Below are positions 26,464-40,533 of a stretch of 64,000 nucleotides of DNA, one piece after another. Below the pieces are notes generated by a model. The model was not told the DNA's origin and ran no database searches. It saw nothing but the letters and a program-made list of their open reading frames with translations. The translations under genes and the position numbers were made by a program. The stretch is from Candidatus Ferrigenium altingense. GTDB lineage: Bacteria; Pseudomonadota; Gammaproteobacteria; Burkholderiales; Gallionellaceae. Each line of letters opens with the position of its first letter. The first letter of the stretch is position 1. The stretch covers positions 241,730 through 305,729 of the forward strand of contig JAHRYS010000002.1 of the NCBI GenBank assembly GCA_020621985.1, read 5' to 3'.

Positions 26464-26579
26464 CGGGAGGTTGGCACAGGGGTAAGCCTTAAAAAATACT
26501 TGTCGAATTGGGTAATTTTGGTTTAGAAAAGGAGCTGTATACTGTTTATAAGTTAACCGGACACTTCTGGAAATCCAAC

Positions 26580-29500
26580 ATGACTAACGCCGAGTCGCCG
26601 CAGCAAACTGCCACATTGACTATCGAGCAATCTCTCCAACAAGCCATCGCTCACCAACAGGCAGGCCAGTTACAAGAAGCCGGAGAACTCTACCGGGTCA
26701 TTCTTCAAGCTCATCCGAATCATCCGGAGGCCAACTACAACATGGGGGGCTTGGCGGTACAGATGAAACAGCCCGCAGCCGGCCTGCCCTATTTCATGGC
26801 CGCACTGGATGCCGAACCGGCGCGCGGGCAATACTGGTTGAATTACATCGACGCACTGTTCCAGGCCGGCCAGTTGGAAGATGCGCGGCAGGTGCTGGCG
26901 CTCGCACAACAGCAGGGGTTGCAGGGGGATGCGGTAGAAGCTCTGGCGCTGCGTTTGAAAGGTGGCGCGCAGGTCGCCGAGCAAGCCAATGCAGAACATC
27001 AGCAAGCCTTAAAGGAATCGCTACCCGTTTCACCGACAGCCCCGCAAAACAGCCAGAAAGCCGCCAAGACCAAACCTGCCAAGCCGAATAAATCGGCCGG
27101 AAAATTTGCCCCACACAAGGGGAAAATCCCCAGTCCTCAAGAGATCAATACACTGGTGGACATGTTCAACCAAGGGCGGTTTACGGAAGCGGCAAGCCTC
27201 GCCCAGGCGATGACGGAGCGCTTCCCTCTGCACGAGTTTGGCTGGAAGGCGTTGGGCGCACTGTTCAAGCAGATGGGGCGGAGTGCAGATGCGCTGACCC
27301 CCATGCAAAAAGCAGCAGCACTGTCGCCGGGTGACGTCGAGGCGCATTACAACCTGGGCGTCACCCTCCAGGATATGGGCCGTTTGATCGAGGCCCAAAT
27401 CAGCTACCGACGGGCATTAAAGATCAACCCTAATTATGCTGATGCACATAGCAATCTGGGCGTCATCCTTCAAGAGTTGGGGCGACTGGATGAGGCAGAA
27501 ACCAGCTACCGACGGACGCTGCAGATCAGCCCGGATTACGCTAAGGCGCACAGCAACCTAGGCGCTATTCTTCAAAAGTTGGGAAGGCTGGACGAGGCCG
27601 AGGCCAGCTTTCGACGAGTGCTGCAGATCAGCCAAGATAATGCCGAGGCGCATAGCAACCTGGGAAATGCACTCAAGGATCTGGGCCGGTTGGCCGAGGC
27701 CGAGGCCAGCTACCGACGGACGCTACAGATCAACCCGGATTATGCTGCGGCGCATAGCAACCTGGGTATCATCTTTCACGAATTGGGCCGATTGGACGAG
27801 GCCGAAGCCAGCTACCGGCGGGTGCTGGAGATCACCCCGGATAATGCTGAGGCGCATTACAATTTGGGTAACATCCTCAAGGAGTTGGGCAGGCTAGACG
27901 AGGCCGAGGCCAGTTACCGAAAGGCGCTGGAGATTAAACCTGATTTCGTTGAGGTGCATAGCAACCTGGGAAATACACTCAAGGAGCTGGGCCGGTTGGC
28001 CGAGGCCGAGGCCAGCTACCAGCGGGCGCTGCAGATCAACCCGGATTATGCTGCGGCGCATAGCAACCTGGGCATCATCCTTCACGAATTGGGCCGATTG
28101 GACGAGGCCGAAATCAGCTACCGGCGGGCGCTGGAAATCGAGCCGAATTACGCTGACGCGCACAGCAATCTGGGCATCACCCTCAAGGGGCTTGGCCGAC
28201 TAGACGAGGCCGAAGCCAGCTACCGGCGGGCGCTGGAGATCACCCCGGATTGTGCTGAGGCGCATTATAATTTGGGTAATATCCTCAAGGAGTTGGGCAG
28301 GCTAGACGAGGCCGAGGCCAGCTACCGGCGGGCGCTGCAGATTAAACCCGATTTCGTTGAGGTGCATAGCAATCTGGGTATCACCCTCAAGGATCTGGGC
28401 CGGTTGGCCGAGGCCGAGGCCAGCTACCAACGGGCGCTGCAAATCAAGCCGGATTATGCTGCGGCGCATGGCAACCTGGGTATCACTCTCAAGGAGTTGG
28501 GCAGGCTAGACGAGGCCGTAGCCAGCCACCGGCGGGCGCTGCAGATCGAACCGAATAACGCTAATACGCATAACAACCTGGGAGACTCCCTCCAGTATAT
28601 GAACCGGTTAAACGAGGCCGAAGCCAGCTACCGGCGGGCGCTGGAGATCGATCCGGTTTTTGATATGGCGCACAGCAACCTGCTTTTTTGCCTTCTTCAC
28701 AATGAAACAGCGGATGCGGAGATGTTGTTTTCTGAACACCTTCGCTTTGGTGAGCAATTCGAGGCTCCCCTGCGAACCAGTTGGCCCCAGCACAGCAACT
28801 CGCGAAACCCGGATCGCTGCCTGCAAGTTGGTTTTGTCTCCGGTGATTTGCGTGACCATGCGGTGGCTTCCTTTATCGAGCCGGTGCTGGCGCACCTGGC
28901 GAGGTATCCGCAATTGTCATTGCACGCCTACGCTAACCACAGTATGGACGACAGTATCACCCAACGTCTGCGCGGATATTTTGCACACTGGTATCCGATT
29001 GTCGGCCTGTCGGACGCGGCACTGGCGGAAAAAATCCGTGCTGACAGTATCGACATCCTGATCGATCTCTCGGGCCACACTGCTAAAAATCGCCTGTTGG
29101 TCTTTGCCTGCAAACCGGCGCCGGTGCAGGCCAGTTGGATGGGTTATCCCGGCACCACGGGCTTGAGCGCGATGGATTACTATCTGGCAGATCGGTTTTT
29201 TCTGCCACTTGGGGAATTCGATAGTCAATTCACGGAAAAAATTGTGCGCTTACCGGCCGGCGTACCTTTTTTGCCTTTCAAAGGTGCGCCGCCGGTCAAT
29301 GCCCTGCCTGCCCTGAGCAACGGCTATATGACCTTCGGCAGCTTCAACCGTTTGAGCAAACTCAGCCGGTCAGTCATCGCACTATGGTCGCAACTTCTGC
29401 GCGCGCTACCAGATTCCAGAATGGTGCTGGGTGCCATGCCTCAAGATGGAAAAAATGATACGTTGATCGATTGGTTTGCGCAGGAAGGTATCGCGCGGGA

Positions 29501-29966
29501 ACGCCTGAGTTTCCATCCGCGTAGCGGTATGGAACACTACCTGAGCCTGCATCATCAAGTAGATATCTGTTTGGATACGTTCCCTTATAACGGCGGCACT
29601 ACGACCCTTCATGCGCTATGGATGGGTGTGCCGACACTAACCTTGGCGGGCAGCACAACGGCGGGTCGGCCGGGCGTCACGATTCTCAGCCATGCTGGCC
29701 TGGATGAGTTTGTAGCCTATGATGCAGCGGATTTCGTGCAGAAGGGCTTGCCTTGGGCCGGCAATCTTGCCGCGCTGTCTGATATCCGGGCAGGTTTGCG
29801 GGAACGCTTTGCGCAGTCGGCGATGGGACAGCCAGCGGTGGTTGCTGCAGGCGTTGAACGTGCCTTGCGCATCATGTGGCAACGCTGGTGTGCAGGCCTG
29901 CCGCCGGAATCATTTGAAGTGTCATTGCAAGATGTTAACAGCACGATGCAGGAGGCCAGCAAATGA
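26580..29966 (+). CDS. TPR-repeat GT41 (OGT/SPINDLY-like) glycosyltransferase, probable flagellin O-glycosyltransferase
   Basis: Long TPR array, then VGFVSGDLRDHAV, IDILIDLSGHT, PAPVQASWMGYPGTTG, FGSFNRLSK and LDTFPYNGGTT; lies upstream of the flagellin genes. Confidence 0.9.
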   Translation: MTNAESPQQTATLTIEQSLQQAIAHQQAGQLQEAGELYRVILQAHPNHPEANYNMGGLAVQMKQPAAGLPYFMAALDAEPARGQYWLNYIDALFQAGQLEDARQVLALAQQQGLQGDAVEALALRLKGGAQVAEQANAEHQQALKESLPVSPTAPQNSQKAAKTKPAKPNKSAGKFAPHKGKIPSPQEINTLVDMFNQGRFTEAASLAQAMTERFPLHEFGWKALGALFKQMGRSADALTPMQKAAALSPGDVEAHYNLGVTLQDMGRLIEAQISYRRALKINPNYADAHSNLGVILQELGRLDEAETSYRRTLQISPDYAKAHSNLGAILQKLGRLDEAEASFRRVLQISQDNAEAHSNLGNALKDLGRLAEAEASYRRTLQINPDYAAAHSNLGIIFHELGRLDEAEASYRRVLEITPDNAEAHYNLGNILKELGRLDEAEASYRKALEIKPDFVEVHSNLGNTLKELGRLAEAEASYQRALQINPDYAAAHSNLGIILHELGRLDEAEISYRRALEIEPNYADAHSNLGITLKGLGRLDEAEASYRRALEITPDCAEAHYNLGNILKELGRLDEAEASYRRALQIKPDFVEVHSNLGITLKDLGRLAEAEASYQRALQIKPDYAAAHGNLGITLKELGRLDEAVASHRRALQIEPNNANTHNNLGDSLQYMNRLNEAEASYRRALEIDPVFDMAHSNLLFCLLHNETADAEMLFSEHLRFGEQFEAPLRTSWPQHSNSRNPDRCLQVGFVSGDLRDHAVASFIEPVLAHLARYPQLSLHAYANHSMDDSITQRLRGYFAHWYPIVGLSDAALAEKIRADSIDILIDLSGHTAKNRLLVFACKPAPVQASWMGYPGTTGLSAMDYYLADRFFLPLGEFDSQFTEKIVRLPAGVPFLPFKGAPPVNALPALSNGYMTFGSFNRLSKLSRSVIALWSQLLRALPDSRMVLGAMPQDGKNDTLIDWFAQEGIARERLSFHPRSGMEHYLSLHHQVDICLDTFPYNGGTTTLHALWMGVPTLTLAGSTTAGRPGVTILSHAGLDEFVAYDAADFVQKGLPWAGNLAALSDIRAGLRERFAQSAMGQPAVVAAGVERALRIMWQRWCAGLPPESFEVSLQDVNSTMQEASK
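27337..28680 (+). repeat. 13 tandem 102-bp TPR-coding repeats
   Basis: Repeating AHxNLG..L.ELGRL.EAE.SYRRAL.I.P unit, with very high DNA similarity between copies. Confidence 0.9.
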
Positions 29967-31081
29967 CGGCTTCACGGGGAGACACGCCAATTTATGTCAC
30001 GCAGCCTTCCTTGCCACCGCTGGAAGAATTTATTCCCTATCTGCAACAAATTTGGGACAGTAAATGGCTGACCAATAGCGGCCCGTTTCACCAGCAATTT
30101 GAACAGGCATTATGCGACTACCTGGGCGTGAAGCATCTTGCCCTGTTCACCAACGGCACCCTTGCACTGGTTACCGCCCTGCAAACCTTGCGCATCACGG
30201 GCGAAGTCATCACCACGCCATATTCTTTCGTGGCAACAGCCCATTCGCTGCTGTGGAACGGGATCAAACCGGTGTTTGTGGACATCGACCCGATCACGCT
30301 CAATCTCGATCCTGACAGGATCGAGGCCGCCATCACCCCGCAAACCACCGCCATCATGCCGGTACACTGCTACGGGCACCCCTGTGATGTGGATCGTATC
30401 CAGAAGATTGCCGACAACTATGGGCTGAAAGTCATCTACGACGCCGCCCACGCCTTTGGTGTGCAATGCCATGACGGCAGCGTGCTCAACCACGGCGACC
30501 TGTCGGTGCTGAGCTTTCACGCCACCAAAGTGTTCAACACCTTCGAAGGCGGCGCCATCGTCTGCCACGATGCCAAAACCAAGCAGCGTATTGACCACCT
30601 GAAAAACTTTGGCTTTGTGGACGAGGTGACCGTGGTCGCTCCCGGCATCAACGGCAAGATGAGCGAAATCAATGCCGCCTTTGGCTTGTTGCAACTAAAA
30701 AGCATTGATGAAGCCCTGCAAAAGCGCAAAGCCATTGATGCCCGTTACCGGGAGTCCTTGGCCGGGATCAAGGGTATCCATTGCCTGTCGGCTGCAGGCG
30801 AAAAGGTGGCCAACTACGCCTACTTCCCGATTCTGGTGCAGCCGGACTATCCCTTGAGCCGTGATGCGTTGTATCAAAAGCTACAGGATAACGGTATTTA
30901 TGCGCGCCGGTATTTCTACCCGTTGATAAGCGATTTTCCGATGTACCGTGGAATGCCTTCGGCGGCGCATGCGAATTTGCCGGTGGCGAGAAAAGTGGCG
31001 GAGCAGGTGATTTGTTTGCCTATCTACCCCGATCTCTCCGGTGAACAGGTCGATTCAATAGTTGAACTTATCGCATGCTAA
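29963..31081 (+). CDS. DegT/DnrJ sugar aminotransferase (VioA-like)
   Basis: IYVTQPSLPPL, YDAAHAFG, SFHATKVFNTFEGG, GINGKMSE and RRYFYP. Confidence 0.9.
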   Translation: MTASRGDTPIYVTQPSLPPLEEFIPYLQQIWDSKWLTNSGPFHQQFEQALCDYLGVKHLALFTNGTLALVTALQTLRITGEVITTPYSFVATAHSLLWNGIKPVFVDIDPITLNLDPDRIEAAITPQTTAIMPVHCYGHPCDVDRIQKIADNYGLKVIYDAAHAFGVQCHDGSVLNHGDLSVLSFHATKVFNTFEGGAIVCHDAKTKQRIDHLKNFGFVDEVTVVAPGINGKMSEINAAFGLLQLKSIDEALQKRKAIDARYRESLAGIKGIHCLSAAGEKVANYAYFPILVQPDYPLSRDALYQKLQDNGIYARRYFYPLISDFPMYRGMPSAAHANLPVARKVAEQVICLPIYPDLSGEQVDSIVELIAC

Positions 31082-31192
31082 GCGGGTAATGGAAAGTCTT
31101 GCCATCATGCGGCACCATTTGCCCATGTTCGTTAATGATAGGATGCAATTTCTTGCGTCCTGTGCGGACTTTGATCTAACACAAGGATAGTG

Positions 31193-31498
31193 ATGCGACT
31201 AACAGACCAGCAGCGCGCCATAATTCGCGCAACCGTTGCTGAAACCTTTGGTGCAGGGGCCGATGTGTGGCTGTTTGGATCAAGGGTGGATGACAGCAAG
31301 CGAGGGGGGGACATCGATCTTTTGATTGAAACAGATCAAGTTGACGTCGATGCAATAGCACGAGCTGAAATTTCCTTCCTGACCAAGATACAAATGAAAC
31401 TGGGCGAGCAAAAAATAGATGTGCTGCTGGATTACCCCTCGCGTAAAACCCGCCCGCCCATTTTTTCCGTTGCCAAACAAACCGGTGTTTTGCTATGA
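31193..31498 (+). CDS. Minimal nucleotidyltransferase (MntA-like antitoxin)
   Basis: LFGSRVDDSKRGGDIDLLI (GS..DxD motif). Confidence 0.88.
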   Translation: MRLTDQQRAIIRATVAETFGAGADVWLFGSRVDDSKRGGDIDLLIETDQVDVDAIARAEISFLTKIQMKLGEQKIDVLLDYPSRKTRPPIFSVAKQTGVLL

Positions 31499-32031
31499 GT
31501 AACGATGTTTCATCACTTCGACTGCAAGACGCCTGGCGCGAATGCGAGCGCAACGTTTATCACCTGTCTCGTGCATTAACATCGCTCGGTTCCATTTTGC
31601 CGATGACTGGGGAGAGGCTCGAGTATCTGACCGATGCGCAGGTGCAAGCGCTAGACCAATTCATCCTGCGCTTTACAAAATTGCAGGATGCGATGGGCGG
31701 TCGTTTGTTTCCGGCTATTCTGCAATATCTGCAAGAGCAATATGAAGAACGCCCAATGTTGGACAAACTCAACCGGCTGGAAAAACTAGGGTATATCCAA
31801 AGTGCAGAGGCATGGCAGAACATTCGTAATGCCCGCAACAAATTCGCCCATGATTATCCCGATGACTGGGAAAAGAATGCCGCACTAATCAATGTGGCCT
31901 GCGAAGCCGCTGCAGATATGTACAACATTCTGGCGGGCATAGAGAAGAAGTTGAAAATCGATCAGCCGCTTCTTGAATTGGGTAAGGCTTTGACTGTGGC
32001 TTATCCAAAACCATCGTCTCGCTGCAAATAG
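31495..32031 (+). CDS. HEPN-domain toxin (HepT-like)
   Basis: DQFILRFTKLQD and RNKFAHDY (Rx4HxY); ATGA overlap with the MNT gene. Confidence 0.85.
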   Translation: MSNDVSSLRLQDAWRECERNVYHLSRALTSLGSILPMTGERLEYLTDAQVQALDQFILRFTKLQDAMGGRLFPAILQYLQEQYEERPMLDKLNRLEKLGYIQSAEAWQNIRNARNKFAHDYPDDWEKNAALINVACEAAADMYNILAGIEKKLKIDQPLLELGKALTVAYPKPSSRCK

Positions 32032-32041
32032 CCAGTTGAAA

Positions 32042-32128
32042 ATGAAGGCTGTCGCCATCATGCAGCAGGGTTTCTTCTTCGGCATCGGTCATTTTCAGGC
32101 GATCGTGGCAGATAGGCTAGCGCCATGA
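32042..32128 (+). pseudogene. Probable 5' remnant of a WbqC-family gene
   Basis: The 28-aa ORF MKAVAIMQQGFFFGIGHFQAIVA... resembles the WbqC N-terminus (M.VAIMQPYFFPYIGYFQLI, recalled consensus). Its TGA overlaps the next ATG. Confidence 0.55.
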
Positions 32129-33420
32129 AAAGGAGAGTGTTGGTTTTTCCTGCCGGAACCGAAATCGGCCTGGAGATATTTCATGCACTCGAGCATTGCA
32201 AGGAGGTGAGTCTGTTCGGTGCCGGCCAGGATATTTCGAACCCGGCCCGCTTTGTTTATCCGGCCTATCACGTTCTCCCCGCCATCAGCGAGCCGGGATG
32301 GGTGGATGCTTTAATCGCACTTTGCCGATCGCTGCATATCGACTATATCTTTCCCGCTTACGACGATGTGATTGTCGCGTTGAGCCGCGAGGCTGAAAAA
32401 TTGCCTGCCAAGGTGATCTCTTCACCATCGAGGGCATGCGAAATCACGCGCTCCAAGTCGGAGACCTATCGCGCCCTCGATGGCATCGTTCGCGTGCCGC
32501 GCCTGTATGCGTCGGCAGAAGAGGTCGATAGCTATCCGGTTTTCGTCAAACCGGATCGGGGGCAAGGGTCTTTCGGAATCGCCAGAGTCGATGACAAGGA
32601 GGCGCTCGTTGCGGCGCTCCGTGCGATTCGCGATCCGATAATTTGCGAATTCCTGCCAGGCGAGGAATATACCGTCGACTGTTTTTCGGATCGGGAAAAA
32701 GGTGTGTTGTTTGCCGGGGCGCGCAGTCGCCGCCGGACGCGTAACGGCATTTCGGTCAATACGCTCACGGAAGCTTTGCCCGAAGCGACCGTGATGGCGA
32801 AACTCATCGGGCGCGAACTCGGACTGCACGGGGCCTGGTTCTTTCAGTTGAAGCGTGCTCAAGACGGGCAGCTGGCATTGCTGGAAATCGCTCCGCGCAT
32901 CGCTGGCGCGATGGCAGCTCATCGGGTTGCGGGTATCAATTTCCCCTTGTTGAGTATTTTCGAGGCAGAGCGCCTTCCTTTATCGGTGCATCCTCTTAAA
33001 GGGGTAGTTGAACTGGATCGGGCGTTGGGAAATCGCTATCGACATTCGATTGAGTTTGCCACGTTATATATCGATTTGGACGATACTTTGCTCGTTAATG
33101 ACCGCATCAATATTCTGGCGGTAAAGTTACTGTTTCAGTGCATCAACAACGGAAAAAAGGTCGTGCTGCTCACCCGGCATCGGGGCGATTTGGATCGGAC
33201 GCTGGCGAAACACCGCTTGTCAGGCTTGTTCGATGAAATAATCCACCTCGGCGAGGCGGAAAAGAAGTCGTCTCACATCAAAGACGATGCGGCGATTTTT
33301 GTAGATGATAGTTTTGCGGAGCGTATGGATGTGGCAGAGCGCTGCAATATTCCAACTTTCGATTGCAGTATGATTGAGCTGCTTACCGAACAGGCGGAAT
33401 TCCTGAATGGAGATAGATGA
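32125..33420 (+). CDS. ATP-grasp protein fused to a C-terminal HAD-like domain
   Basis: YPVFVKPDRGQGS, EFLPGEEYTVD and LLEIAPRIAG, then YIDLDDTL...FVDDS. Confidence 0.85.
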   Translation: MKRRVLVFPAGTEIGLEIFHALEHCKEVSLFGAGQDISNPARFVYPAYHVLPAISEPGWVDALIALCRSLHIDYIFPAYDDVIVALSREAEKLPAKVISSPSRACEITRSKSETYRALDGIVRVPRLYASAEEVDSYPVFVKPDRGQGSFGIARVDDKEALVAALRAIRDPIICEFLPGEEYTVDCFSDREKGVLFAGARSRRRTRNGISVNTLTEALPEATVMAKLIGRELGLHGAWFFQLKRAQDGQLALLEIAPRIAGAMAAHRVAGINFPLLSIFEAERLPLSVHPLKGVVELDRALGNRYRHSIEFATLYIDLDDTLLVNDRINILAVKLLFQCINNGKKVVLLTRHRGDLDRTLAKHRLSGLFDEIIHLGEAEKKSSHIKDDAAIFVDDSFAERMDVAERCNIPTFDCSMIELLTEQAEFLNGDR

Positions 33421-34163
33421 TGGGCGATTCAAACAAGGAAATGGAATTTCTTGAAAGCGTGACGCATACCTACGTTACGAGCGACAGCCCGCAGGACAGG
33501 CTCATCAAGACACTCGCGGTGCGCACATTCCAGCCGTACATGCAGCGCGGAAAACGCGCGCTGGAATTCGGCTGTTGCGACGGTTTCATGACCGGACTCA
33601 TTGCGGGGCACGTCGATCAGCTAACGGTCGTTGACGGCTCACAGACATTCATCGACATGGCCAAGAAACGGGTTCCCGATAACGTGGAATTCGTGCATGC
33701 GCTGTTTGAGGATTTCTCGCCTGGTTGCAAGTTTGATTACATCTTCGCCACTTATGTGCTGGAACATGTCGGCGATGCGGTCGGTTTTCTGAAGATCGCG
33801 AATCGGTTGTTGGCCGAAGACGGGCTGCTGTTCCTGGTGGTGCCCAATGCCCGCGCCTTTTCCCGTCAGCTTGCACGCCACATGGGGCTGCTCGACGATC
33901 TTTTCGCGCTGACGCCGAACGACATCAATCATGGCCATCGTCGGGTATATGACCGCATCGCACTGAACCGTGATATCGCATCCGCCGGCATGTTGCAGGT
34001 CGGTCAAGGAGGGCTCTTGCTCAAGTTGCTGGCCGATTTTCAGATGGATACGCTGATCGAAAACGGAATTCTCGGTGAGCCGCAACTGGAGGGGTTGTAC
34101 AAAATGGGGTTCGAGTACCCCGATCTGGCCGGCAGCTTGTTTTCGGTTTGTCGGCGGCCGTGA
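33417..34163 (+). CDS. Class I SAM-dependent methyltransferase
   Basis: ALEFGCCDG, VLEHV, LVVPNA and GHRRVY. Confidence 0.88.
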   Translation: MMGDSNKEMEFLESVTHTYVTSDSPQDRLIKTLAVRTFQPYMQRGKRALEFGCCDGFMTGLIAGHVDQLTVVDGSQTFIDMAKKRVPDNVEFVHALFEDFSPGCKFDYIFATYVLEHVGDAVGFLKIANRLLAEDGLLFLVVPNARAFSRQLARHMGLLDDLFALTPNDINHGHRRVYDRIALNRDIASAGMLQVGQGGLLLKLLADFQMDTLIENGILGEPQLEGLYKMGFEYPDLAGSLFSVCRRP

Positions 34164-34203
34164 TAGCCGCTGGTCTGTGTGATTGATTTAGAAAGAACGA
34201 AAA

Positions 34204-35283
34204 ATGGCATCCAATCTCAGTTTTCTGGAGAAGAATGCGATGCGCACTCCAAGCCTGGAGGAGCTGCTTCCGCTACCGGCGCCCTTGGGCTTGTGCATCG
34301 AGCCCACTAACCGCTGCAACTTTAGTTGCAGTTTTTGCCCCGTACATTTGGAGGAATTCCCCGATGTCGTCGGAGGGCTGCGCTTCATGGACTTTGCCTT
34401 GTTCGAGAAAGTTGTCCATGATGTCAAGGCAACGGGTCAGCGATTGGTCAATCTGAATTTGTATGGTGATGGCGAGCCTTTTCTTAACAAGCGCCTGTTA
34501 GACATGATTCGTCTTGCGGCGCAAATGCAAATCGCACAAAACATCATCGTTACCTCCAACGGATCTGCCATTACCGAGGGAAACGCTATTGCGTTGCTTG
34601 ATTCTGGCCTTACTCATCTGCGGGTTTCCATTTACGGCATAGATGAGGATTTTCATCGGCACATCACCGGCTCACCCATCACTCCCGCTCAAGTGCATGC
34701 CAACATTGACAGGTTGCGAAAGTTGCGCGATGCGCGTGGCAGCCGGTTGCCTCATATCTATGTGAAGATGATCGGAACCAGCGAGACTAGTTCGCAACTT
34801 GAACGTTTCCGGGAGCTATACGCCGATGTGGCCGACGAGGTAAACGTGGAGAATCCCATCAACTGGAACGGATATAACGATAACGATTTGGTGGGAGCGC
34901 TGGACCCCGAGCATGAGTGTAACCTGACCCTTGTGCAAGGCTGGCACAAGCAGAAGGGACAGTCGAATCACCACAAGCAGATTTGCACCACTCCATTCTT
35001 GTCGCTCAACGTCAAATCGGACGGTGTCGTGACTATCTGCATCGTGGATTGGAACAAGGGTACGGCAGTCGGCGATATCACTCGCGAATCACTGGCAGAC
35101 ATCTGGCATGGCGAGCGTCTGCGCGCGTTCAGGCGCATGCATATCGAGGGCCGCCGCAGTGAAAATCCTTCGTGCCGCAATTGTCAGGTGCTATATAACA
35201 GCCCCGACAATATCGATGCGCTAGCATCCGCCGACCCAGAGCGTTTGCTTTATTACCCGCATCCATCAGGCCATAATCGCTAG
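34204..35283 (+). CDS. Radical SAM protein with SPASM/Twitch domain
   Basis: CNFSCSFC (CX3CX2C) and GDGEP; C-terminal CTTPF..G.V.IC..VGDI..LADIW..CRNC. Confidence 0.92.
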   Translation: MASNLSFLEKNAMRTPSLEELLPLPAPLGLCIEPTNRCNFSCSFCPVHLEEFPDVVGGLRFMDFALFEKVVHDVKATGQRLVNLNLYGDGEPFLNKRLLDMIRLAAQMQIAQNIIVTSNGSAITEGNAIALLDSGLTHLRVSIYGIDEDFHRHITGSPITPAQVHANIDRLRKLRDARGSRLPHIYVKMIGTSETSSQLERFRELYADVADEVNVENPINWNGYNDNDLVGALDPEHECNLTLVQGWHKQKGQSNHHKQICTTPFLSLNVKSDGVVTICIVDWNKGTAVGDITRESLADIWHGERLRAFRRMHIEGRRSENPSCRNCQVLYNSPDNIDALASADPERLLYYPHPSGHNR

Positions 35284-35293
35284 CAGGCCCATC

Positions 35294-36409
35294 ATGACCA
35301 AAAAAATACAGCATGGAAATGGCAGCAAGCCAATTTTGATTTTCCCCGGCGGCATGCCGCGCTCGCTGGAATACTTGCAAAACTGCCTGCGCGATGGGCT
35401 GCCTGTCATCGGTGCATCCTCGCTCGACTATGATGTCTCGCGGGAGAAATATCCGTCGTGGCTGTTCTTGCCCTACATTGCCCAGTCCGGGTTTGATGAG
35501 GCTCTGAAGCAGGCAATTGTGGAATTCGGTATCGGGGGGGTCTATTCGCCCAATCCGGTAGTTTGGGGCTACCTCAACCGCAAGCTGAAGGATATCGCCC
35601 CGGGTGTTGCGCTGGTGAACGAATCGCCGGTGGGCGCGGAATTGAGCGGCTACCGGGCCGCCCGAGCCTGGGCGCGTTCCCGGCTCGATCAGCCGCTTCC
35701 GGTGGCCTCCGCGCTGATGCCCAAAACGCACCTGTCGGAAATCGAACTGGCCTCCTTGTTCCGGCATGCGGAGTTGATCCCCGGTATGTGCGACTGTGAA
35801 AAATTCTGCGCGCTGTATGAGATTGCACGCCGCAGCCCAGCCGGAGATGTGGTGGAGATCGGGAGCTGGTGGGGGAAGTCCGCCTTCATCCTGGCAAGGC
35901 TGGCGCGTTGCTATGGAATAGGCAATTTGCTGTGTGTGGACCCTTGGTCGAATGAACATCTCGTGCAAAATGACGAAAAGGGACTGGTGGACGCCGAATC
36001 GGCACGTCTGGATGCCGAGGAGGCACTGGCGGTTTTCGAGATGAACCTGCTCCCATACAGCGCCAATCACGTCAATTATCTGCGCATGCCCTCGACGGAC
36101 GGCGCGAAGCATTATCGCGAACACCGGAGTGCTACCACCTCATCATTTGGAACCACGAGTTATTGCGGGCATATTGCGATCCTGCATATTGACGGCAATC
36201 ACAGTTATGCCGCCGCCAAGGCCGACATTGCATCCTGGAGCGGGTTTGTTGTTGACGGCGGGTGGATGATTGTTGACGACTATATTTGGCCGTATGGCGA
36301 TGGTCCGCAACGGGCCGGCGATGAGTTCCTGGCGGAAAATAAAGACAGGATTGATGTTGCTTTTGTGATGGGTAGCGCCCTATTGGTCCAATTGTCACAT
36401 GCAGCATAG
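35294..36409 (+). CDS. SAM-dependent methyltransferase (Methyltransf_24-like) with an extra N-terminal domain
   Basis: VVEIGSWWGKS, CVDPW, LHIDGNHSY and GGWMIVDDY. Confidence 0.85.
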   Translation: MTKKIQHGNGSKPILIFPGGMPRSLEYLQNCLRDGLPVIGASSLDYDVSREKYPSWLFLPYIAQSGFDEALKQAIVEFGIGGVYSPNPVVWGYLNRKLKDIAPGVALVNESPVGAELSGYRAARAWARSRLDQPLPVASALMPKTHLSEIELASLFRHAELIPGMCDCEKFCALYEIARRSPAGDVVEIGSWWGKSAFILARLARCYGIGNLLCVDPWSNEHLVQNDEKGLVDAESARLDAEEALAVFEMNLLPYSANHVNYLRMPSTDGAKHYREHRSATTSSFGTTSYCGHIAILHIDGNHSYAAAKADIASWSGFVVDGGWMIVDDYIWPYGDGPQRAGDEFLAENKDRIDVAFVMGSALLVQLSHAA

Positions 36410-36467
36410 ACATGAAGCCAAAACAGCTCGCATTTGCAAGCAGTAATACATTGACTATGGGTGTCTT

Positions 36468-36496
36468 CGGATTTTGCTTCGCTTCATCCGGGCCAC
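36468..36496. repeat. Partial REP of the same family as 17528
   Basis: CGGATTTTGCTTCGCTTCATCCGGGCCAC. Confidence 0.6.
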
Positions 36497-36671
36497 AACA
36501 AAGCGTAAGGCCAATGTAACTACTGATGAGGCTCTAAATATTGGACTAAGACGCGATGAAATTGCGTTTAGACGCTACTTATAGCCATCTGGCCAGGCTG
36601 CCCAAAAACGACAGCCAAGTCTTGGTTATCATGAATTGCTCTTACTGCAACAAAGAAATTCAAAATTCCCC

Positions 36672-36698
36672 TAAAGTTTTCCCGTCCCGTTCCGATAA
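36672..36698 (+). promoter_or_regulatory. sigma28 (FliA) promoter of the flagellin genes
   Basis: TAAA-N15-TCCGATAA. Confidence 0.85.
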
Positions 36699-36789
36699 CT
36701 CTACTAACGGCGGTTGACAAGCTTGCAACATCAGGCAAACCAAAGTGAACGGCAACCAAGCCGGACAATAAACTTTAAGGAGAACTAAA

Positions 36790-37482
36790 ATGGCACAAGT
36801 TATCAACACCAACGTAGGCGCCCTGTTCGCTGGATCAGCCCTGAACAAATCGGCGATTGCGCTGCAAACCGCCCAGCAACGCCTGTCTTCCGGCCTGCGC
36901 ATCAATAGCGCCAAGGATGACGCTACCGGCTTGGCCACCGCCACCGGTTACGATACCTCGATTCGAGCAACGAACGTGACCATTCGCATGGCAAATGACG
37001 CTGTTTCGCTGGCGCAAACCGCCGATGGCTATCTGGGCCAAATCACGGAAAACCTGCAACGCATGTCTGAAGTGCTGAAACAAGTCCCGGCGGGCAATGC
37101 TGAAACTACCGCGCTTATCGCTGAAAATACCCGTATTAATGCGCTGGTTATCAACTCGGTTGCGGTTGCCGGGGGTCCGACGGCGGCTTACGGCACCAAG
37201 CCGTCGCTTACTGGCACTACCGCATCTGTCGCTGCAGATCTTACCGCTGTAACAACTTCACGCGCCACCTTCGGTGCCGACATGTCGGGGCTGGCATCTA
37301 CCGTTGCCACCTTGCAGACCGCTTCGGTGAACTTGTCGGCCGCGTTTAGCCGCGTCATGGACACCGACTACGCCGCAGAAACTACAAGCATGACCCGCAA
37401 CAACATTCTGCAACAAGCGGGAACGGCAGTGCTGGCGCAGGCGAACCAGACGCCAAACACCGTGTTGACTTTGCTGCGTTAA
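36790..37482 (+). CDS. fliC: Flagellin (230 aa, unusually short)
   Basis: MAQVINTN, RLSSGLRINSAKDD, SRVMDTDYA.E and ILQQAGTAVLAQANQ..VLTLLR. Confidence 0.95.
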   Translation: MAQVINTNVGALFAGSALNKSAIALQTAQQRLSSGLRINSAKDDATGLATATGYDTSIRATNVTIRMANDAVSLAQTADGYLGQITENLQRMSEVLKQVPAGNAETTALIAENTRINALVINSVAVAGGPTAAYGTKPSLTGTTASVAADLTAVTTSRATFGADMSGLASTVATLQTASVNLSAAFSRVMDTDYAAETTSMTRNNILQQAGTAVLAQANQTPNTVLTLLR

Positions 37483-37517
37483 TCGGTCAATACAGCTAAT
37501 ACCTAAGGAGAATTAAA

Positions 37518-38225
37518 ATGGCACAAGTCATCAACACCAACGTAGGCGCCCTGTTCGCTGGATCAGCCCTGAACAAATCGGCGATTGCGCTGCAAACCGC
37601 CCAGCAACGCCTGTCTTCCGGCCTGCGCATCAATAGCGCCAAGGATGACGCTACCGGCTTGGCCACCGCCACCGGTTACGATACCTCGATTCGAGCAACG
37701 AACGTGACCATTCGCATGGCAAATGACGCTGTTTCGCTGGCGCAAACCGCCGATGGCTATCTGGGCCAAATCACGGAAAACCTGCAACGCATGTCTGAAG
37801 TGCTGAAACAAGTCCCGGCGGGCAATGCTGAAACTGCCGCACTTGCCGCGGAAAACGTCCGTATTAACGCGCTGGTTGTTAACTCGGTTGTGGTTGCCGG
37901 GGGTCCGGCTGCGGCTTACGGCACCAAGCCGGTACTGACTGCCATTACTGCTGGTGCGACCGCTGCGAATGTCACTACAGATCTCGGTCTTGTAACCACT
38001 TCACGCGCCACCTTCGGCGCCGACATGTCGGGGCTGGCATCTACCGTTGCCACCTTGCAGACCGCTTCGGTGAACTTGTCGGCCGCGTTTAGCCGCGTCA
38101 TGGACACCGACTACGCCGCAGAAACTACAAGCATGACCCGCAACAACATTCTGCAACAAGCGGGAACGGCAGTGCTGGCGCAGGCGAACCAGACGCCAAA
38201 CACGGTGCTGACTTTGCTGCGTTAA
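37518..38225 (+). CDS. fliC: Flagellin paralog (235 aa)
   Basis: Termini nearly identical to the first copy; has its own TAAGGAG RBS. Confidence 0.95.
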   Translation: MAQVINTNVGALFAGSALNKSAIALQTAQQRLSSGLRINSAKDDATGLATATGYDTSIRATNVTIRMANDAVSLAQTADGYLGQITENLQRMSEVLKQVPAGNAETAALAAENVRINALVVNSVVVAGGPAAAYGTKPVLTAITAGATAANVTTDLGLVTTSRATFGADMSGLASTVATLQTASVNLSAAFSRVMDTDYAAETTSMTRNNILQQAGTAVLAQANQTPNTVLTLLR

Positions 38226-38241
38226 CCTTGGTAGTATAATG

Positions 38242-38271
38242 AATGCCTGACCGGACAACCGGTTGGGCATT
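38242..38271 (+). terminator. Hairpin after the flagellins (terminator or stabiliser)
   Basis: AATGCCTGACCGG-ACAA-CCGGTTGGGCATT. Confidence 0.55.
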
Positions 38272-38291
38272 TGGAGCAAAGGAGATCAAAA

Positions 38292-38672
38292 ATGATTATC
38301 CAGAATAGCACCACAAATCAGGCGGCAGCGCCTGCTAGGCTCGCCAGCGATGGCGAGCCTAATGCCGTTATTACCGCACCCTCGAATGCAGAAGCGCAGT
38401 CTAGCGTTGCAGTTGCGCAAGTTGCCTCCCAGCAGCCTTCATCTCAGCAGTTGCAGAACGCGGTGGACGGCATCAACCAGGCAATGCGGCAGTCAAACCA
38501 GAATCTGGAATTCAGCGTGGATCCCGGTACAAAAAAGCCGATCGTCAAGATGGTGGACACGCAAACCGGCGAGTTGATTCGTCAATTTCCATCGGAAGAG
38601 ACGCTGGCGATTGCACGTTCGATAGACCAATTCCTGCAACGGCAGGGTCTATTGTTGAACCAAAAAGTATAG
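38292..38672 (+). CDS. flaG: Flagellar protein FlaG
   Basis: LEFSVD...VKMVD.QTGELIRQFPSEE. Confidence 0.9.
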   Translation: MIIQNSTTNQAAAPARLASDGEPNAVITAPSNAEAQSSVAVAQVASQQPSSQQLQNAVDGINQAMRQSNQNLEFSVDPGTKKPIVKMVDTQTGELIRQFPSEETLAIARSIDQFLQRQGLLLNQKV

Positions 38673-38688
38673 TCCGGGAGATAAAGCC

Positions 38689-40065: not shown

Positions 40066-40067
40066 TC

Positions 40068-40529
40068 ATGAACGCCACAGCTGCAATCAAAGCCTATAAC
40101 AAAGTCGGGATCGAATCCAGCGTGACGGCTGCCGATCCGGTCAAGCTGATTTCGATGTTATATCAGGGCGCTTTGCTGGCGATCGCCAATGCCAAGAACG
40201 GCATCCTGCGCAAGGACACCCCCGCCAAGGGTGCGGCGATTTCCAAAGCCATTGCCATCATCGGCGAAGGCCTGAATGCCAGTCTGGATAAAAAGGTTGG
40301 GGGTGAGTTGGCGCAGAATTTGTCTTCATTATACGACTATATGGTTATGCGTCTGCTTGCCGCCAATTTGAATAACGATATGGCCGCGCTGGATGAAGTG
40401 GCGCGCCTGCTGAACGATTTGAAGGGCGCTTGGGACAGTATCCGCCAGTCGGCCGCAGCCGTGCCGCAGCATCTGGATATACAGCCAAAAATCGCGAATA
40501 GAGCGCAACTGGCATACGCAAGAGGATAA
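40068..40529 (+). CDS. fliS: Flagellin export chaperone
   Basis: ADPVKLISMLYQGA, GGELAQNLSSLYDYM and AWD.I. Confidence 0.95.
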   Translation: MNATAAIKAYNKVGIESSVTAADPVKLISMLYQGALLAIANAKNGILRKDTPAKGAAISKAIAIIGEGLNASLDKKVGGELAQNLSSLYDYMVMRLLAANLNNDMAALDEVARLLNDLKGAWDSIRQSAAAVPQHLDIQPKIANRAQLAYARG

Positions 40530-40533
40530 GAAA

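What the first reader, a model, noticed from the sequence alone, without database searches (positions are those of the whole stretch)
26580..38225. Flagellin glycosylation island predicting an unusual ATP-grasp/radical-SAM-tailored amino sugar
Seen: a co-oriented, partly overlapping run of TPR-GT41, VioA-like aminotransferase, ATP-grasp-HAD fusion, methyltransferase, radical SAM/SPASM enzyme and second methyltransferase, directly before two Ser/Thr-rich flagellins. No acetyl- or formyltransferase is visible. Established: VioA makes dTDP-4-amino-4,6-dideoxyglucose, which is acylated and methylated on Pseudomonas flagellins; ATP-grasp enzymes form amide bonds. Inference: the ATP-grasp enzyme ligates a radical-SAM- or HAD-processed acid to the 4-amino sugar, methylation follows, and the OGT-like enzyme transfers the product. 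I do not recognise this glycan pathway as described, and it is the best candidate in the window for a novel system.
Basis: partly seen in the sequence, partly recalled or inferred. Interest (0 to 1): 0.72.

Follow-up and report, generated by a model that had tools for sequence, protein, structure and literature searches.

The report
Flagellin sugar-decoration island with unusual enzymes
This is a real gene island next to the flagellin genes of a groundwater iron bacterium that most likely decorates the flagellar filament with a modified amino sugar; its core matches a little-studied system already tied to flagellin glycans in a rice pathogen, and two extra enzymes here are undescribed in that role.

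Summary
In detail: 26580-36409 (+) encodes a TPR-GT41 glycosyltransferase, a DesI/VioA-like aminotransferase (AT), an ATP-grasp-HAD fusion (AGHAD), a methyltransferase (MT1), a radical-SAM enzyme (rSAM) and a second methyltransferase (MT2). Two short flagellins follow behind a sigma-28-like promoter. The flagellins lie inside the stated range and are not unusually Ser/Thr-rich.

The core is not new. AT-AGHAD-MT1 corresponds to Fst-Fcs-Fmt of Acidovorax avenae K1 (71/57/54% identity), whose joint deletion shrinks the flagellin glycan. That glycan's structure is unsolved. AT+AGHAD is a widespread cassette: at least 3002 relatives across phyla, mostly in polysaccharide loci and often beside RmlA/RmlB.

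Best reading (0.55): dTDP-4-amino-4,6-dideoxyhexose is N-acylated by the ATP-grasp domain. The conserved HAD domain removes a phosphate from the acid partner, as in C. jejuni Cj1438C/Cj1435. Methylation follows and GT41 transfers the sugar to flagellin.

New here:
- The rSAM has a BtrN-type four-cysteine auxiliary domain, occurs fused to MT1 in other organisms, and its kin sit in deoxysugar clusters.
- MT2 carries an N-domain homologous to that of AGHAD.

Verdict: new variant of a known kind, with unknown chemistry.

The parts
26580..29966 (+). TPR-GT41 protein O-glycosyltransferase. The ORF opens at TTG 26508; the first ATG is 26580.
   Evidence: Pfam Glyco_transf_41 scores 148 bits and there are 13 TPR_1 stretches. 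The catalytic part best matches the solved SPINDLY (268 bits), 5djs and XcOGT. Orthologues sit upstream of the cassette in L009, L010, L011, L013, L018 and L019.
29963..31081 (+). DegT-family, DesI/VioA-like sugar 4-aminotransferase (AT). It corresponds to Fst of A. avenae.
   Evidence: Pfam DegT scores 365 bits. NCBIfam DesI scores 325 bits, below its cut-off of 650. The best solved relative is 2po3 at 256 bits; the next scores 171. It is 71% identical to the L027 Fst orthologue.
31115..32057 (+). Inserted segment carrying a minimal nucleotidyltransferase (31190-31498) and a HEPN-like gene (31495-32031). It is probably a toxin-antitoxin pair and not part of the pathway.
   Evidence: NTP_transf_2 scores 24.6 bits against a cut-off of 21. 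HEPN_Cthe2314 is only a weak match at E 0.004. The segment is absent from L009 at exactly this junction and from all 80 related loci. A contig in run X7 skips 31033->32058.
32125..33420 (+). ATP-grasp carboxylate-amine ligase fused to a C-terminal capless HAD phosphatase domain (residues ~313-425). It corresponds to Fcs of A. avenae.
   Evidence: Pfam ATPgrasp_Ter scores 69 bits. The AlphaFold model has pLDDT 94.3. Fold matches are 2pn1, biotin carboxylases, L-amino acid ligase 3vot and PylC. The HAD domain model matches MDP-1, HisB-N, KDN9P phosphatase, KdsC and T4 PNK phosphatase. D317, D319, D320 and K381 are invariant in 45 of 45 sequences.
33417..34163 (+). Class-I SAM methyltransferase MT1. 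It corresponds to Fmt of A. avenae.
   Evidence: Pfam Methyltransf_23/11 and NodS (29 bits against a cut-off of 24). It lies directly downstream of the ligase in 16 loci. It is 54% identical to the L027 Fmt orthologue. It occurs fused to the radical SAM enzyme in P0154.
34204..35283 (+). Radical SAM enzyme (rSAM) with a BtrN-type single auxiliary-cluster ('twitch') domain.
   Evidence: Pfam Radical_SAM and SPASM. C38/C42/C45 and C261/C279/C324/C327 are invariant in 44 of 44 homologues. The four C-terminal cysteines align with those of BtrN chain 4m7s.
35294..36409 (+). Two-domain methyltransferase MT2: an N-terminal domain homologous to the ligase's N-terminal domain, then a TylF/Methyltransf_24 domain.
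   Evidence: Pfam Methyltransf_24 scores 62 bits and TylF 23 bits. hhalign of MT2 residues 10-106 against ligase residues 2-98 gives probability 96% and E 4e-9. BLASTP gives E 8e-5.
36672..36698 (+). Sigma-28 (FliA)-type promoter-like site upstream of the first flagellin.
   Evidence: There is one mismatch to TAAAGTTT-N11-GCCGATAA (consensus recalled). It is the only match in the window at up to 3 mismatches, where 0.24 are expected by chance.
36790..37482 (+). Flagellin 1 (230 aa; N- and C-terminal helical regions with a short central segment); presumed acceptor.
   Evidence: Pfam Flagellin_N and Flagellin_C.
37518..38225 (+). Flagellin 2 (235 aa, about 91% identical to flagellin 1); presumed acceptor.
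   Evidence: Pfam. tblastn found these two as the only flagellin genes in the 81%-complete genome.
38271..40857 (+). FlaG, FliD, FliS and FliT (filament cap and chaperones); context showing this is the filament operon.
   Evidence: Pfam FlaG, FliD_N/C, FliS and FliT.

Best explanation
This is a flagellin O-glycosylation island. The proposed pathway has six steps; only the first is directly shown.
1. Shown as gene presence only: RmlA and RmlB, encoded elsewhere in the genome, can supply dTDP-4-keto-6-deoxy-D-glucose.
2. Inferred from homology and gene context: the DesI/VioA-like aminotransferase converts this to a dTDP-4-amino-4,6-dideoxyhexose.
3. Inferred: the ATP-grasp domain activates a carboxylic acid as an acyl phosphate and joins it to the sugar's 4-amino group.
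4. Inferred by analogy with C. jejuni Cj1438C/Cj1435: the acid enters as a phosphorylated primary metabolite, for example phosphoglycerate or phosphoserine. The fused HAD domain then removes the phosphate and leaves a hydroxylated acyl chain.
5. Inferred: MT1 and MT2 methylate the product. The BtrN-like radical SAM enzyme, an optional module, carries out a radical oxidation or epimerisation on the sugar or its side chain.
6. Inferred: the TPR-GT41 enzyme transfers the finished sugar to Ser/Thr in the short central segment of the two flagellins.

The core trio (aminotransferase, ATP-grasp-HAD, MT1) corresponds to Fst/Fcs/Fmt of Acidovorax avenae K1.
For: Location and target:
- The island abuts the only two flagellin genes found in the genome, plus flaG-fliD-fliS-fliT.
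- Its only glycosyltransferase belongs to GT41, a protein-glycosylating family.
- Pfam found no flippase, ABC exporter or initiating lipid-carrier transferase among the island's ORFs.

Link to a system with genetic evidence:
- In P. avenae locus L027 the order is flagellins, Fst, Fcs, Fmt, Fgt. Identities to the window proteins are 71, 57 and 54%.
- Calculated masses are 41,760, 51,250 (50,606 from an alternative start) and 27,019 Da. The paper gives 41,817, 50,796 and 27,013 Da.
- Deleting the three genes lowers the glycan mass on K1 flagellin from about 2,150 to about 1,420 Da (PMC4622738).

Aminotransferase specificity:
- The best solved relative is DesI (2po3) at 256 bits; the next scores 171.
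- In four Firmicutes loci examined (L084, L065, L075, L068) the cassette's aminotransferase is also best matched by DesI. All four carry an RmlA above the curated cut-off; RmlB was scored in three (L084, L065, L075), also above cut-off. In L084, L065 and L068 the aminotransferase adjoins these genes.
- 7 of 77 loci have RmlA+RmlB-like genes without RmlC within 8 kb.
- The window's own genome has rmlB, rmlD and rmlA above cut-offs.

Ligase plus phosphatase:
- The fold is a confident ATP-grasp.
- The HAD catalytic residues are invariant in 45 of 45 homologues from many phyla, so the phosphatase is under selection. The HAD fold is confirmed.
- The biochemical precedent for 'ligate a phosphorylated partner, then dephosphorylate with a HAD enzyme' is Cj1438C/Cj1435 (PMC11800397 passages).

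Cassette behaviour:
- AT-AGHAD is followed directly by MT1 in 16 loci, by another methyltransferase in 9, and by a pyruvyl-transferase-family gene in 8.
- These are enzymes that cap hydroxyl groups, which fits a hydroxylated product.

Accessory genes belong to the pathway:
- Natural MT1-rSAM fusions exist: P0154 aligns at 36% and 49% identity, and P0168 has the same precomputed domain set in the listing.
- MT2 shares its N-domain with the ligase.
- Distant relatives of the radical SAM enzyme sit in a deoxysugar cluster that contains a nucleotidyltransferase, a 4,6-dehydratase, a 3,5-epimerase, a C-methyltransferase and a GT41 protein.

Precedent for an amide-capped amino sugar needing an ATP-grasp enzyme on flagellin: C. 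difficile type B.
Against: - No glycan has been observed for this organism, and the A. avenae structure is unsolved in the papers I could read.
- The aminotransferase fails the DesI equivalog cut-off (325 against 650 bits). The nucleotide and the C4 configuration are therefore not established.
- The acid substrate is unknown. Fold matches are generic for ATP-grasp enzymes and include bicarbonate-using carboxylases.
- The K1 mutant lost about 182 Da per site (730 Da over 4 sites). That does not fit loss of a whole acylated, methylated viosamine (about 245 Da) unless the masses are imprecise.
- 67 of 80 cassette loci show no flagellar gene within 10 kb, so the cassette is not flagellin-specific.
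- A. avenae uses a GT2-type Fgt, not GT41.
- The phosphorylated-acid idea rests on analogy only.
Confidence: 0.55

Rival explanations
1. Uronic-acid amidation, as in the C. jejuni HS:2 capsule. The aminotransferase would make an amino-alcohol phosphate such as serinol phosphate from dihydroxyacetone phosphate. The ATP-grasp domain would join it to the carboxylate of a uronic acid already on the glycan. The HAD domain would then remove the phosphate.
For: - The same three enzyme types act together in C. jejuni: Cj1437 (transaminase), Cj1438C (ATP-dependent amidoligase) and Cj1435 (HAD phosphatase) (PMC11800397 passages).
- The model explains the conserved ligase-HAD fusion.
- 3 of 77 loci carry a UDP-glucose dehydrogenase within 8 kb.
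- A pyruvyl-transferase-family gene follows the ligase in 8 loci, and a 1,3-diol such as serinol could take a ketal.
- In L065 and L069 a GT2 gene sits between the aminotransferase and the ligase. This recalls the GT2-ligase fusion in Cj1438.
Against: - The aminotransferase is far closer to DesI (256 bits) than to any other solved DegT enzyme (<=171 bits).
- In Firmicutes loci the cassette aminotransferase lies beside or between true RmlA and RmlB genes.
- There is no uronic-acid gene in the island.
- I could not obtain the Cj1437, Cj1438 or Cj1435 sequences, so direct homology is untested.
Confidence: 0.15
2. The island modifies LPS, EPS or another surface polymer rather than flagellin. On this view its position beside the flagellin genes is incidental.
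For: - 67 of 80 cassette loci show no flagellar gene within 10 kb.
- Many of those loci carry Wzx, ABC-2 transporters, GT2/GT4 and RmlABC genes.
- In the near relative L009 the island is inverted relative to its flanks, so it behaves as a mobile block.
Against: - There is no exporter, polymerase or initiating transferase in the island.
- The only transferase is TPR-GT41, a protein-modifying family.
- The GT41-cassette block sits next to flagellin or FliD in L009, L011, L018 and L019 as well.
- Deleting the A. avenae orthologues changes flagellin mass.
Confidence: 0.07
3. Desosamine-like route. The radical SAM enzyme would act like DesII and deaminate the 4-amino sugar to a 3-keto-4,6-dideoxy sugar. 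The final sugar would then be a 4,6-dideoxyhexose derivative rather than a 4-N-acyl sugar.
For: - The aminotransferase is DesI-like.
- The radical SAM enzyme gives weak matches to DesII: TIGR04426 at 28 bits and 8hzv at 22 bits, E 6e-4.
Against: - The radical SAM enzyme is present in only 5 of 80 cassette loci. The aminotransferase-ligase pair is the constant core.
- An amide ligase needs the amine to be kept.
- The enzyme's C-terminal domain aligns with BtrN's auxiliary-cluster domain, not with DesII.
- The island has no second aminotransferase.
Confidence: 0.05
4. The ATP-grasp domain uses bicarbonate, as PurK and biotin carboxylase do. It would form an N-carboxy (carbamate) group on the amino sugar, which MT1 then methylates to a methyl carbamate.
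For: - Fold matches include many biotin carboxylases and PurK.
- The family is often annotated as carbamoyl-phosphate-synthase-like.
- A methyltransferase follows the ligase directly.
Against: - It gives no role to the invariant HAD phosphatase residues.
- L-amino acid ligase and PylC match about as well.
- The alternative downstream genes (pyruvyl transferase family, LicD) do not fit a carbamate.
Confidence: 0.05

Closest known systems
Acidovorax avenae K1 flagellin glycosylation island (Fgt, Fmt, Fcs, Fst)
   Same: - It has the same three biosynthetic genes in the same order (aminotransferase, ATP-grasp-HAD, methyltransferase) next to the flagellin genes.
- Identities are 71, 57 and 54%.
- Deleting the trio reduces the flagellin glycan mass (PMC4622738).
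   Different: - The transferase there is a 1,464-aa protein with a methyltransferase domain and two GT2 domains, not TPR-GT41.
- It has no radical SAM enzyme and no MT2.
- Its flagellins are about 490 aa, against 230-235 aa here.
- Its glycan is an oligosaccharide of about 540 Da per site. Here a single transferase suggests a monosaccharide.
Pseudomonas syringae viosamine island (vioA, vioB, vioT, vioR, vioS, vioM, acp; fgt1/fgt2)
   Same: It is a flagellin glycan ending in an N-acylated, O-methylated 4-amino-4,6-dideoxyglucose, made with a VioA-type aminotransferase and a methyltransferase (as described in PMC4622738 text, and the PMC3927599 abstract).
   Different: - There the acyl group (3-hydroxybutyryl) is built on an acyl carrier protein by ketosynthase and reductase enzymes.
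- Here no ACP, ketosynthase, reductase or acetyltransferase domain is present. An ATP-grasp-HAD ligase takes that place.
Clostridioides difficile type B flagellin modification (CDR20291_0245 ATP-grasp, CDR20291_0247 FdtB-like aminotransferase)
   Same: - The flagellin glycan ends in an amino-dideoxyhexose (Fuc3N) capped through amide bonds.
- An ATP-grasp enzyme is required for the cap (PMC5207246 passages; PMC5207245 abstract).
   Different: - The sugar is a 3-amino sugar, and the cap is a taurine/alanine/glycine peptide.
- The GT2 transferases build a tetrasaccharide.
- Whether that ATP-grasp enzyme belongs to the family found here, or carries a HAD domain, was not tested.
Campylobacter jejuni HS:2 capsule amidation (Cj1437, Cj1438 C-domain, Cj1435)
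   Same: - It uses the same combination of PLP transaminase, ATP-dependent amide ligase and HAD phosphatase.
- Its chemical logic is ligation of a phosphorylated partner followed by dephosphorylation (PMC11800397 passages).
   Different: - There the amine is a small amino-alcohol phosphate and the carboxylate is glucuronic acid in a capsule.
- The three activities lie on separate proteins.
- Here the aminotransferase looks like a dTDP-sugar enzyme, and the target is probably flagellin.
BtrN (radical SAM 2-deoxy-scyllo-inosamine dehydrogenase of butirosin biosynthesis; function recalled)
   Same: It has the CX3CX2C cluster plus a C-terminal domain whose four cysteines have the same spacing, and these align residue for residue.
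   Different: - Overall similarity is low: 53 bits, mostly from the C-terminal 80 residues.
- The enzyme here is about 90 residues longer.
- The context is protein glycosylation, not aminoglycoside synthesis.
- The reaction is unknown.

Membership tests
Flagellin glycosylation island (general) | Sugar-biosynthesis genes and a glycosyltransferase directly adjacent to flagellin or filament genes | tested here: met
   The genes at 26580-36409 are followed by two flagellins, FlaG, FliD, FliS and FliT.
Flagellin glycosylation island (general) | The flagellin carries the glycan | not testable with these tools
   This needs mass spectrometry of flagella.
A. avenae Fst/Fcs/Fmt-type cassette | Orthologues of all three genes, contiguous and in the same order | tested here: met
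   Identities to L027 are 71, 57 and 54%, in the order AT-AGHAD-MT1. The masses of the L027 proteins match the published ones. In the window a 943-bp insertion separates the first two genes.
A. avenae Fst/Fcs/Fmt-type cassette | Fgt-type (GT2) flagellin glycosyltransferase | tested here: not met
   The window has TPR-GT41. The L027 Fgt has a methyltransferase domain and two GT2 domains.
P. syringae viosamine island | Acyl-carrier-protein-based acyl chain synthesis (VioR, VioS, ACP) and VioB acetyltransferase | tested here: not met
   No ketosynthase, reductase, ACP or hexapeptide/GNAT domain was found in the island ORFs.
DesI/VioA dTDP-4-keto-6-deoxyglucose 4-aminotransferase | Score above the curated equivalog cut-off (TIGR04427) | tested here: not met
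   It scores 325 bits against a cut-off of 650, although this is the best-scoring family.
DesI/VioA dTDP-4-keto-6-deoxyglucose 4-aminotransferase | Closest solved relative and dTDP-glucose pathway context | tested here: met
   2po3 scores 256 bits and the next relative 171. True RmlA and RmlB genes flank cassette aminotransferases in other phyla. The window's own genome has rmlA, rmlB and rmlD.
ATP-grasp carboxylate-amine ligases | ATP-grasp fold and family score above the cut-off | tested here: met
   PF15632 scores 69 bits against a cut-off of 29. The model has pLDDT 94, and Foldseek probability is 1.00 to 2pn1, 3vot, PylC and biotin carboxylases.
HAD phosphatases | Catalytic motifs (DxDxT, Lys, DD) and the Rossmann-like HAD fold | tested here: met
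   D317, D319, D320 and K381 are invariant and D394/D395 nearly so. Fold matches include MDP-1, HisB-N, KdsC and KDN9P phosphatase. No Pfam or PDB sequence match was found.
C. jejuni Cj1437/Cj1438C/Cj1435 amidation system | Transaminase that acts on dihydroxyacetone phosphate, and a uronic-acid acceptor | tested here: inconclusive
   The enzyme types match. However, the aminotransferase is DesI-like and the island has no uronic-acid gene. The C. jejuni sequences could not be obtained for comparison.
GT41 (OGT/SPINDLY-type) protein glycosyltransferases | N-terminal TPR array plus a complete GT41 catalytic region | tested here: met
   PF13844 scores 148 bits and there are 13 TPR repeats. Residues 8-410 of the C-terminal 428 align to SPINDLY residues 445-851.
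BtrN-like 'twitch' radical SAM enzymes | CX3CX2C plus one four-cysteine auxiliary cluster domain | tested here: met
   Seven cysteines are invariant in 44 of 44 homologues, and the four C-terminal ones align to BtrN.
BtrN-like 'twitch' radical SAM enzymes | Membership of the curated twitch subfamily NF033640, or dehydrogenase activity | tested here: not met
   NF033640 scores 47 bits against a cut-off of 170. The activity cannot be tested with these tools.

The most novel reading that the evidence does not exclude
The island makes a flagellin sugar of a kind not yet described. It would be a 4-amino-4,6-dideoxyhexose carrying a hydroxy-acyl or aminoacyl group, delivered as a phosphorylated metabolite by a ligase-phosphatase fusion, then methylated. 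A BtrN-like radical SAM enzyme would then oxidise or epimerise it. That would be the first radical SAM sugar-tailoring step in bacterial protein glycosylation. It would also assign a chemistry to a cassette present in thousands of glycan loci across bacteria and archaea.
Probability: 0.25. Interest if true: 0.75.

Novelty: new variant of a known kind. Interest (0 to 1): 0.55.

Why it matters
- The aminotransferase + ATP-grasp-HAD cassette is widespread. A word-limited search found at least 3,002 relatives. Loci come from Proteobacteria, Bacteroidota, Firmicutes, Actinomycetota, Cyanobacteria and Archaea. I found no biochemical characterisation of it in the searches listed under Tried and rejected.
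- Its A. avenae orthologues decide whether rice recognises flagellin (PMC4622738). Solving the chemistry would therefore explain a plant immune-evasion glycan.
- It would also allow annotation of many O-antigen, S-layer and flagellin loci.
- The radical SAM enzyme and the domain-sharing methyltransferase are concrete handles for new sugar-tailoring reactions.

Tried and rejected
  - 'ATP-grasp + dideoxy + O-antigen + amide' returned 0 papers, as did 'ATP-grasp + gene cluster + Qui4N'.
  - 'flagellin + glycosylation island + radical SAM' returned only an unrelated Rickettsia paper.
  - No paper in the held library describes a radical SAM enzyme in a flagellin island or characterises this ligase family. 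Subscription papers are not covered.
  - The A. avenae JBC 2011 paper and three Raushel papers (PMC3138280, PMC9619395, PMC8524856, PMC9633586) are not held.
- **C. jejuni comparison.** I did not compare the proteins with Cj1437, Cj1438 or Cj1435, because no tool gave me those sequences as stored records. The rival reading therefore lacks a direct homology test.
- **HAD domain by sequence.** No Pfam or PDB match was found. The fold search was needed.
- **Complex prediction of MT1 with the radical SAM enzyme**. There was no verdict (score 0.00), so this is evidence neither way.
- **RNA evidence.** No RNA holder was listed for the island, so nothing can be said about expression.
- **Promoter and terminator scan**. 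Counts equalled those of shuffled sequence, so it was uninformative.
- **Distant radical SAM relatives.** Twelve regions were fetched from phylum genomes (GT41 hits under 300 aa were dropped).
  - None carried the ligase, so these 25-33%-identical proteins are a wider family, not the same cassette.
- **Run X7**.
  - A contig joins 34157 to 35310 with 'between: not known', and about 1.2 kb of it does not align.
  - I do not claim the radical SAM gene is deleted there. It may be a diverged allele.
- **A. avenae mass data.** The loss of about 182 Da per site could not be fitted to a specific acyl group.

Full report
**What is in the sequence**

The window lies on contig C5 of a 2.18-Mb, 81%-complete genome. 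Its nearest relative among public genomes is an uncultured Gallionella (L009), whose ligase is 97% identical.

After the cbb3 oxidase genes and fixG/fixH, the + strand carries these genes:
- A 1,128-1,152-aa protein with 13 TPR repeats and a GT41 catalytic region (26508/26580-29966).
- A DegT-family aminotransferase (AT), 29963-31081.
- A small nucleotidyltransferase (31190-31498) and a HEPN-like gene (31495-32031).
- An ATP-grasp protein with a C-terminal extension (AGHAD), 32125-33420.
- A class-I methyltransferase, MT1 (33417-34163).
- A radical SAM/SPASM protein (rSAM), 34204-35283.
- A TylF/Methyltransf_24 methyltransferase, MT2 (35294-36409).
- Two flagellins of 230 and 235 aa (36790-37482 and 37518-38225), then flaG, fliD, fliS and fliT.

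The first flagellin is preceded by TAAAGTTT-N11-TCCGATAA at 36672-36698. This is one mismatch from the recalled sigma-28 consensus. It is the only such site in the window, where 0.24 are expected at up to 3 mismatches. tblastn found these two as the only flagellin genes in the assembly.

- The nucleotidyltransferase/HEPN-like pair was missed.
- The flagellins lie inside the stated range.
- They are not notably Ser/Thr-rich: 20-22% overall.
- The aminotransferase does not reach the DesI equivalog cut-off (325 against 650 bits).

**The ATP-grasp-HAD fusion is real**

No Pfam model or PDB sequence recognises the last ~120 residues. The evidence for a HAD domain is structural and comparative:
- In 45 homologues of 38-97% identity, D317, D319, D320 (the DLDDT motif) and K381 are invariant, and D394/D395 nearly so.
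- The whole protein folds with pLDDT 94.3.
- The isolated C-terminal domain folds with pLDDT 92.8.
- That domain matches capless HAD phosphatases at Foldseek probability 1.00: MDP-1, HisB-N, KDN9P phosphatase, KdsC and T4 PNK phosphatase.

The N-terminal 300 residues are a standard ATP-grasp fold. The nearest structures are an uncharacterised 'carbamoylphosphate synthase' (2pn1), biotin carboxylases, L-amino acid ligase 3vot and PylC. This does not reveal the substrate.

**The core is a known but chemically unsolved system**

In Paracidovorax avenae (L027) the gene order is fliS, fliD, two flagellins, aminotransferase, ATP-grasp-HAD, methyltransferase, then a 1,464-aa protein with a methyltransferase domain and two GT2 domains.
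- The three biosynthetic proteins are 71, 57 and 54% identical to the window's.
- Their calculated masses are 41,760, 51,250 (50,606 from an alternative start) and 27,019 Da.
- These agree with the 41,817, 50,796 and 27,013 Da reported for Fst, Fcs and Fmt of A. avenae K1.

In that strain, deleting the three genes lowers the glycan mass on flagellin from about 2,150 to about 1,420 Da. It also restores recognition by rice cells. The authors state that the glycan structure remains to be determined (PMC4622738, whole text).

A second precedent is C. difficile type B flagellin. Its glycan ends in Fuc3N capped by taurine, alanine and glycine, and an ATP-grasp enzyme is needed for the cap. The statement that no such pathway is described is therefore too strong.

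**The cassette is general, and it points to a dTDP-sugar amine**

The ligase family is large: 3,002 proteins at E<=0.001 among 7,999 word-sharing candidates. The 80 best public loci come from many bacterial phyla and from archaea.

By tblastn at E<=1e-5, the counts among those 80 loci are:

| Feature within the locus | Loci of 80 |
|---|---|
| Aminotransferase relative | 71 |
| MT1 | 17 |
| GT41/TPR match | 13 |
| Any flagellar gene | 13 |
| MT2 | 8 |
| Radical SAM enzyme | 6 |

The other loci are polysaccharide loci with Wzx, ABC-2 transporters and GT2/GT4 genes.

The gene directly after the ligase is MT1 in 16 loci, another methyltransferase in 9, and a pyruvyl-transferase-family gene in 8. 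LicD follows it in several more. This pattern fits a product that offers free hydroxyl groups for capping.

Three lines point to a dTDP-sugar substrate for the aminotransferase:
- Its best solved relative is DesI (2po3) at 256 bits, with the next at 171.
- In the Firmicutes loci L084, L065, L075 and L068 the cassette aminotransferase is again best matched by DesI. All four carry an RmlA above the curated cut-off. RmlB was scored in L084, L065 and L075, also above cut-off, and in L084, L065 and L068 the aminotransferase adjoins these genes.
- 7 of 77 loci have RmlA+RmlB-like genes without RmlC within 8 kb, while 3 have a UDP-glucose dehydrogenase.

The window's own genome has rmlB, rmlD and rmlA about 200 kb away.

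I therefore favour a dTDP-4-amino-4,6-dideoxyhexose as the amine. This is inference, not proof.

**Why a phosphatase would be fused to a ligase**

The only characterised system I found that combines a PLP transaminase, an ATP-dependent amide ligase and a HAD phosphatase is the C. jejuni HS:2 capsule (PMC11800397 passages):
- Cj1437 makes serinol phosphate.
- The C-domain of Cj1438 joins it to glucuronic acid.
- Cj1435 then removes the phosphate.

Two readings follow from this:
- **Preferred.** The logic is borrowed but the polarity is reversed. The sugar supplies the amine, a phosphorylated acid such as phosphoglycerate or phosphoserine supplies the carboxylate, and the HAD domain unmasks a hydroxyl.
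- **Rival.** The system is a true uronamide system. The aminotransferase evidence above argues against this. I could not compare sequences with the C. jejuni proteins.

**The two add-ons**

*Radical SAM enzyme.*
- Its CX3CX2C motif and four C-terminal cysteines are invariant in 44 homologues. The four cysteines have the same spacing as, and align with, the auxiliary-cluster cysteines of BtrN.
- The family is small: 179 proteins at E<=1e-10 among 3,507 candidates.
- It is sporadic. It was found in 1 of 200 other genomes of the same family, against 5 of 200 for the ligase.
- One relative, P0154, was confirmed by alignment as a natural MT1-radical-SAM fusion in the same order as the window's two genes (36% and 49% identity). 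P0168 has the same precomputed domain set in the listing.
- More distant relatives (25-33% identity) do not accompany the ligase. One such locus is a deoxysugar cluster with a nucleotidyltransferase, 4,6-dehydratase, 3,5-epimerase, sugar C-methyltransferase, O-methyltransferases, a methyltransferase next to the radical SAM gene, and a GT41-GT2 protein.
- I read it as a sugar-tailoring enzyme, most simply a BtrN-like oxidation or an epimerisation. Its substrate is unknown.

*MT2.* It has an N-terminal ~100 residues homologous to the ligase's N-terminal domain (hhalign probability 96%, E 4e-9). This suggests that both recognise the same substrate.

**Transferase and target**

The catalytic region aligns end to end with SPINDLY, a Thermobaculum OGT homologue and XcOGT. 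The island has no exporter or lipid-carrier enzyme. GT41 orthologues sit upstream of the cassette next to flagellin or FliD in L009, L011, L018 and L019. A single transferase suggests a single sugar per site.

**Population and evolution notes**

Compared with L009:
- The block from the ligase to MT2 is 93.9% identical in DNA.
- fixG/fixH are 85-90% identical.
- The flagellin region is about 70-77% identical in DNA; GT41 and flagellin proteins are 57% and 48% identical.
- The island is inverted between the same flanks.
- The 943-bp nucleotidyltransferase/HEPN-like segment is absent.

Identical island sequence occurs in a freshwater run of another study: the X3 contig pieces listed show no differences. 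In run X7 the abundant strain skips 31033->32058, while a rare strain carries the insertion.

**Verdict**

This is a genuine flagellin glycosylation island. Its core belongs to a genetically known but chemically unsolved cassette. The BtrN-like radical SAM enzyme, the domain-sharing second methyltransferase and the GT41 transferase make it a new variant.

Noticed in passing
window 31115-32057: A 943-bp insertion carries a minimal nucleotidyltransferase and a HEPN-like gene (4-bp overlap; likely a toxin-antitoxin pair). It sits exactly between the aminotransferase and ligase genes. It is absent from L009 and from all 80 related loci, and about 10 bp of L009 sequence aligns on both sides of it. 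In run X7 the abundant strain skips it and a rare strain carries it.
   Followed up: partly
window 26467-36645 versus L009 3081-15550: Relative to the nearest relative, the whole glycosylation block is inverted between the same fixGH and flagellin flanks. The ligase-to-MT2 part is more similar (93.9% DNA identity) than the flanking core genes (85-90%). GT41 and flagellin are much more diverged (57% and 48% protein identity). This suggests recent exchange of the biosynthetic block and diversification of the transferase-acceptor pair.
   Followed up: partly
window 36790-38225: The two tandem flagellins are very short (230 and 235 aa), with essentially only the conserved N- and C-terminal helical regions. 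They are 91% identical, and their differences are concentrated in the ~50-residue central segment.
   Followed up: partly
window 35294-35620 and 32125-32420: The N-terminal ~100 residues of the second methyltransferase are homologous to the N-terminal domain of the ATP-grasp ligase (hhalign probability 96%). I have not seen this domain sharing described.
   Followed up: yes
P0154 and P0168: Natural ~599-aa fusions join an MT1-like methyltransferase to the radical SAM enzyme, in the same order as the two adjacent window genes.
   Followed up: partly
(protein atlas): A cluster of ATP-grasp proteins resembling the ligase (score 0.93, 60 members) is labelled as viral (Uroviricota). Other clusters are ATP-grasp fusions with a canonical HAD_2 domain in Spirochaetota, Bacillota and Thermoproteota.
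   Followed up: no
window 42603-43355 and 43469-44221: Two adjacent YcgR-like PilZN+PilZ proteins (flagellar brake or c-di-GMP effectors) lie downstream of the filament genes.
   Followed up: no
It may be another protein-glycosylation system that uses radical SAM sugar tailoring.
   Followed up: partly
window 34157-35310, run X7: The abundant strain in one aquatic metagenome has a contig joining the end of MT1 to the start of MT2, with about 1.2 kb that does not align at 90% identity. The radical SAM gene may be replaced or strongly diverged there. A rare strain carries the window's version.
   Followed up: no
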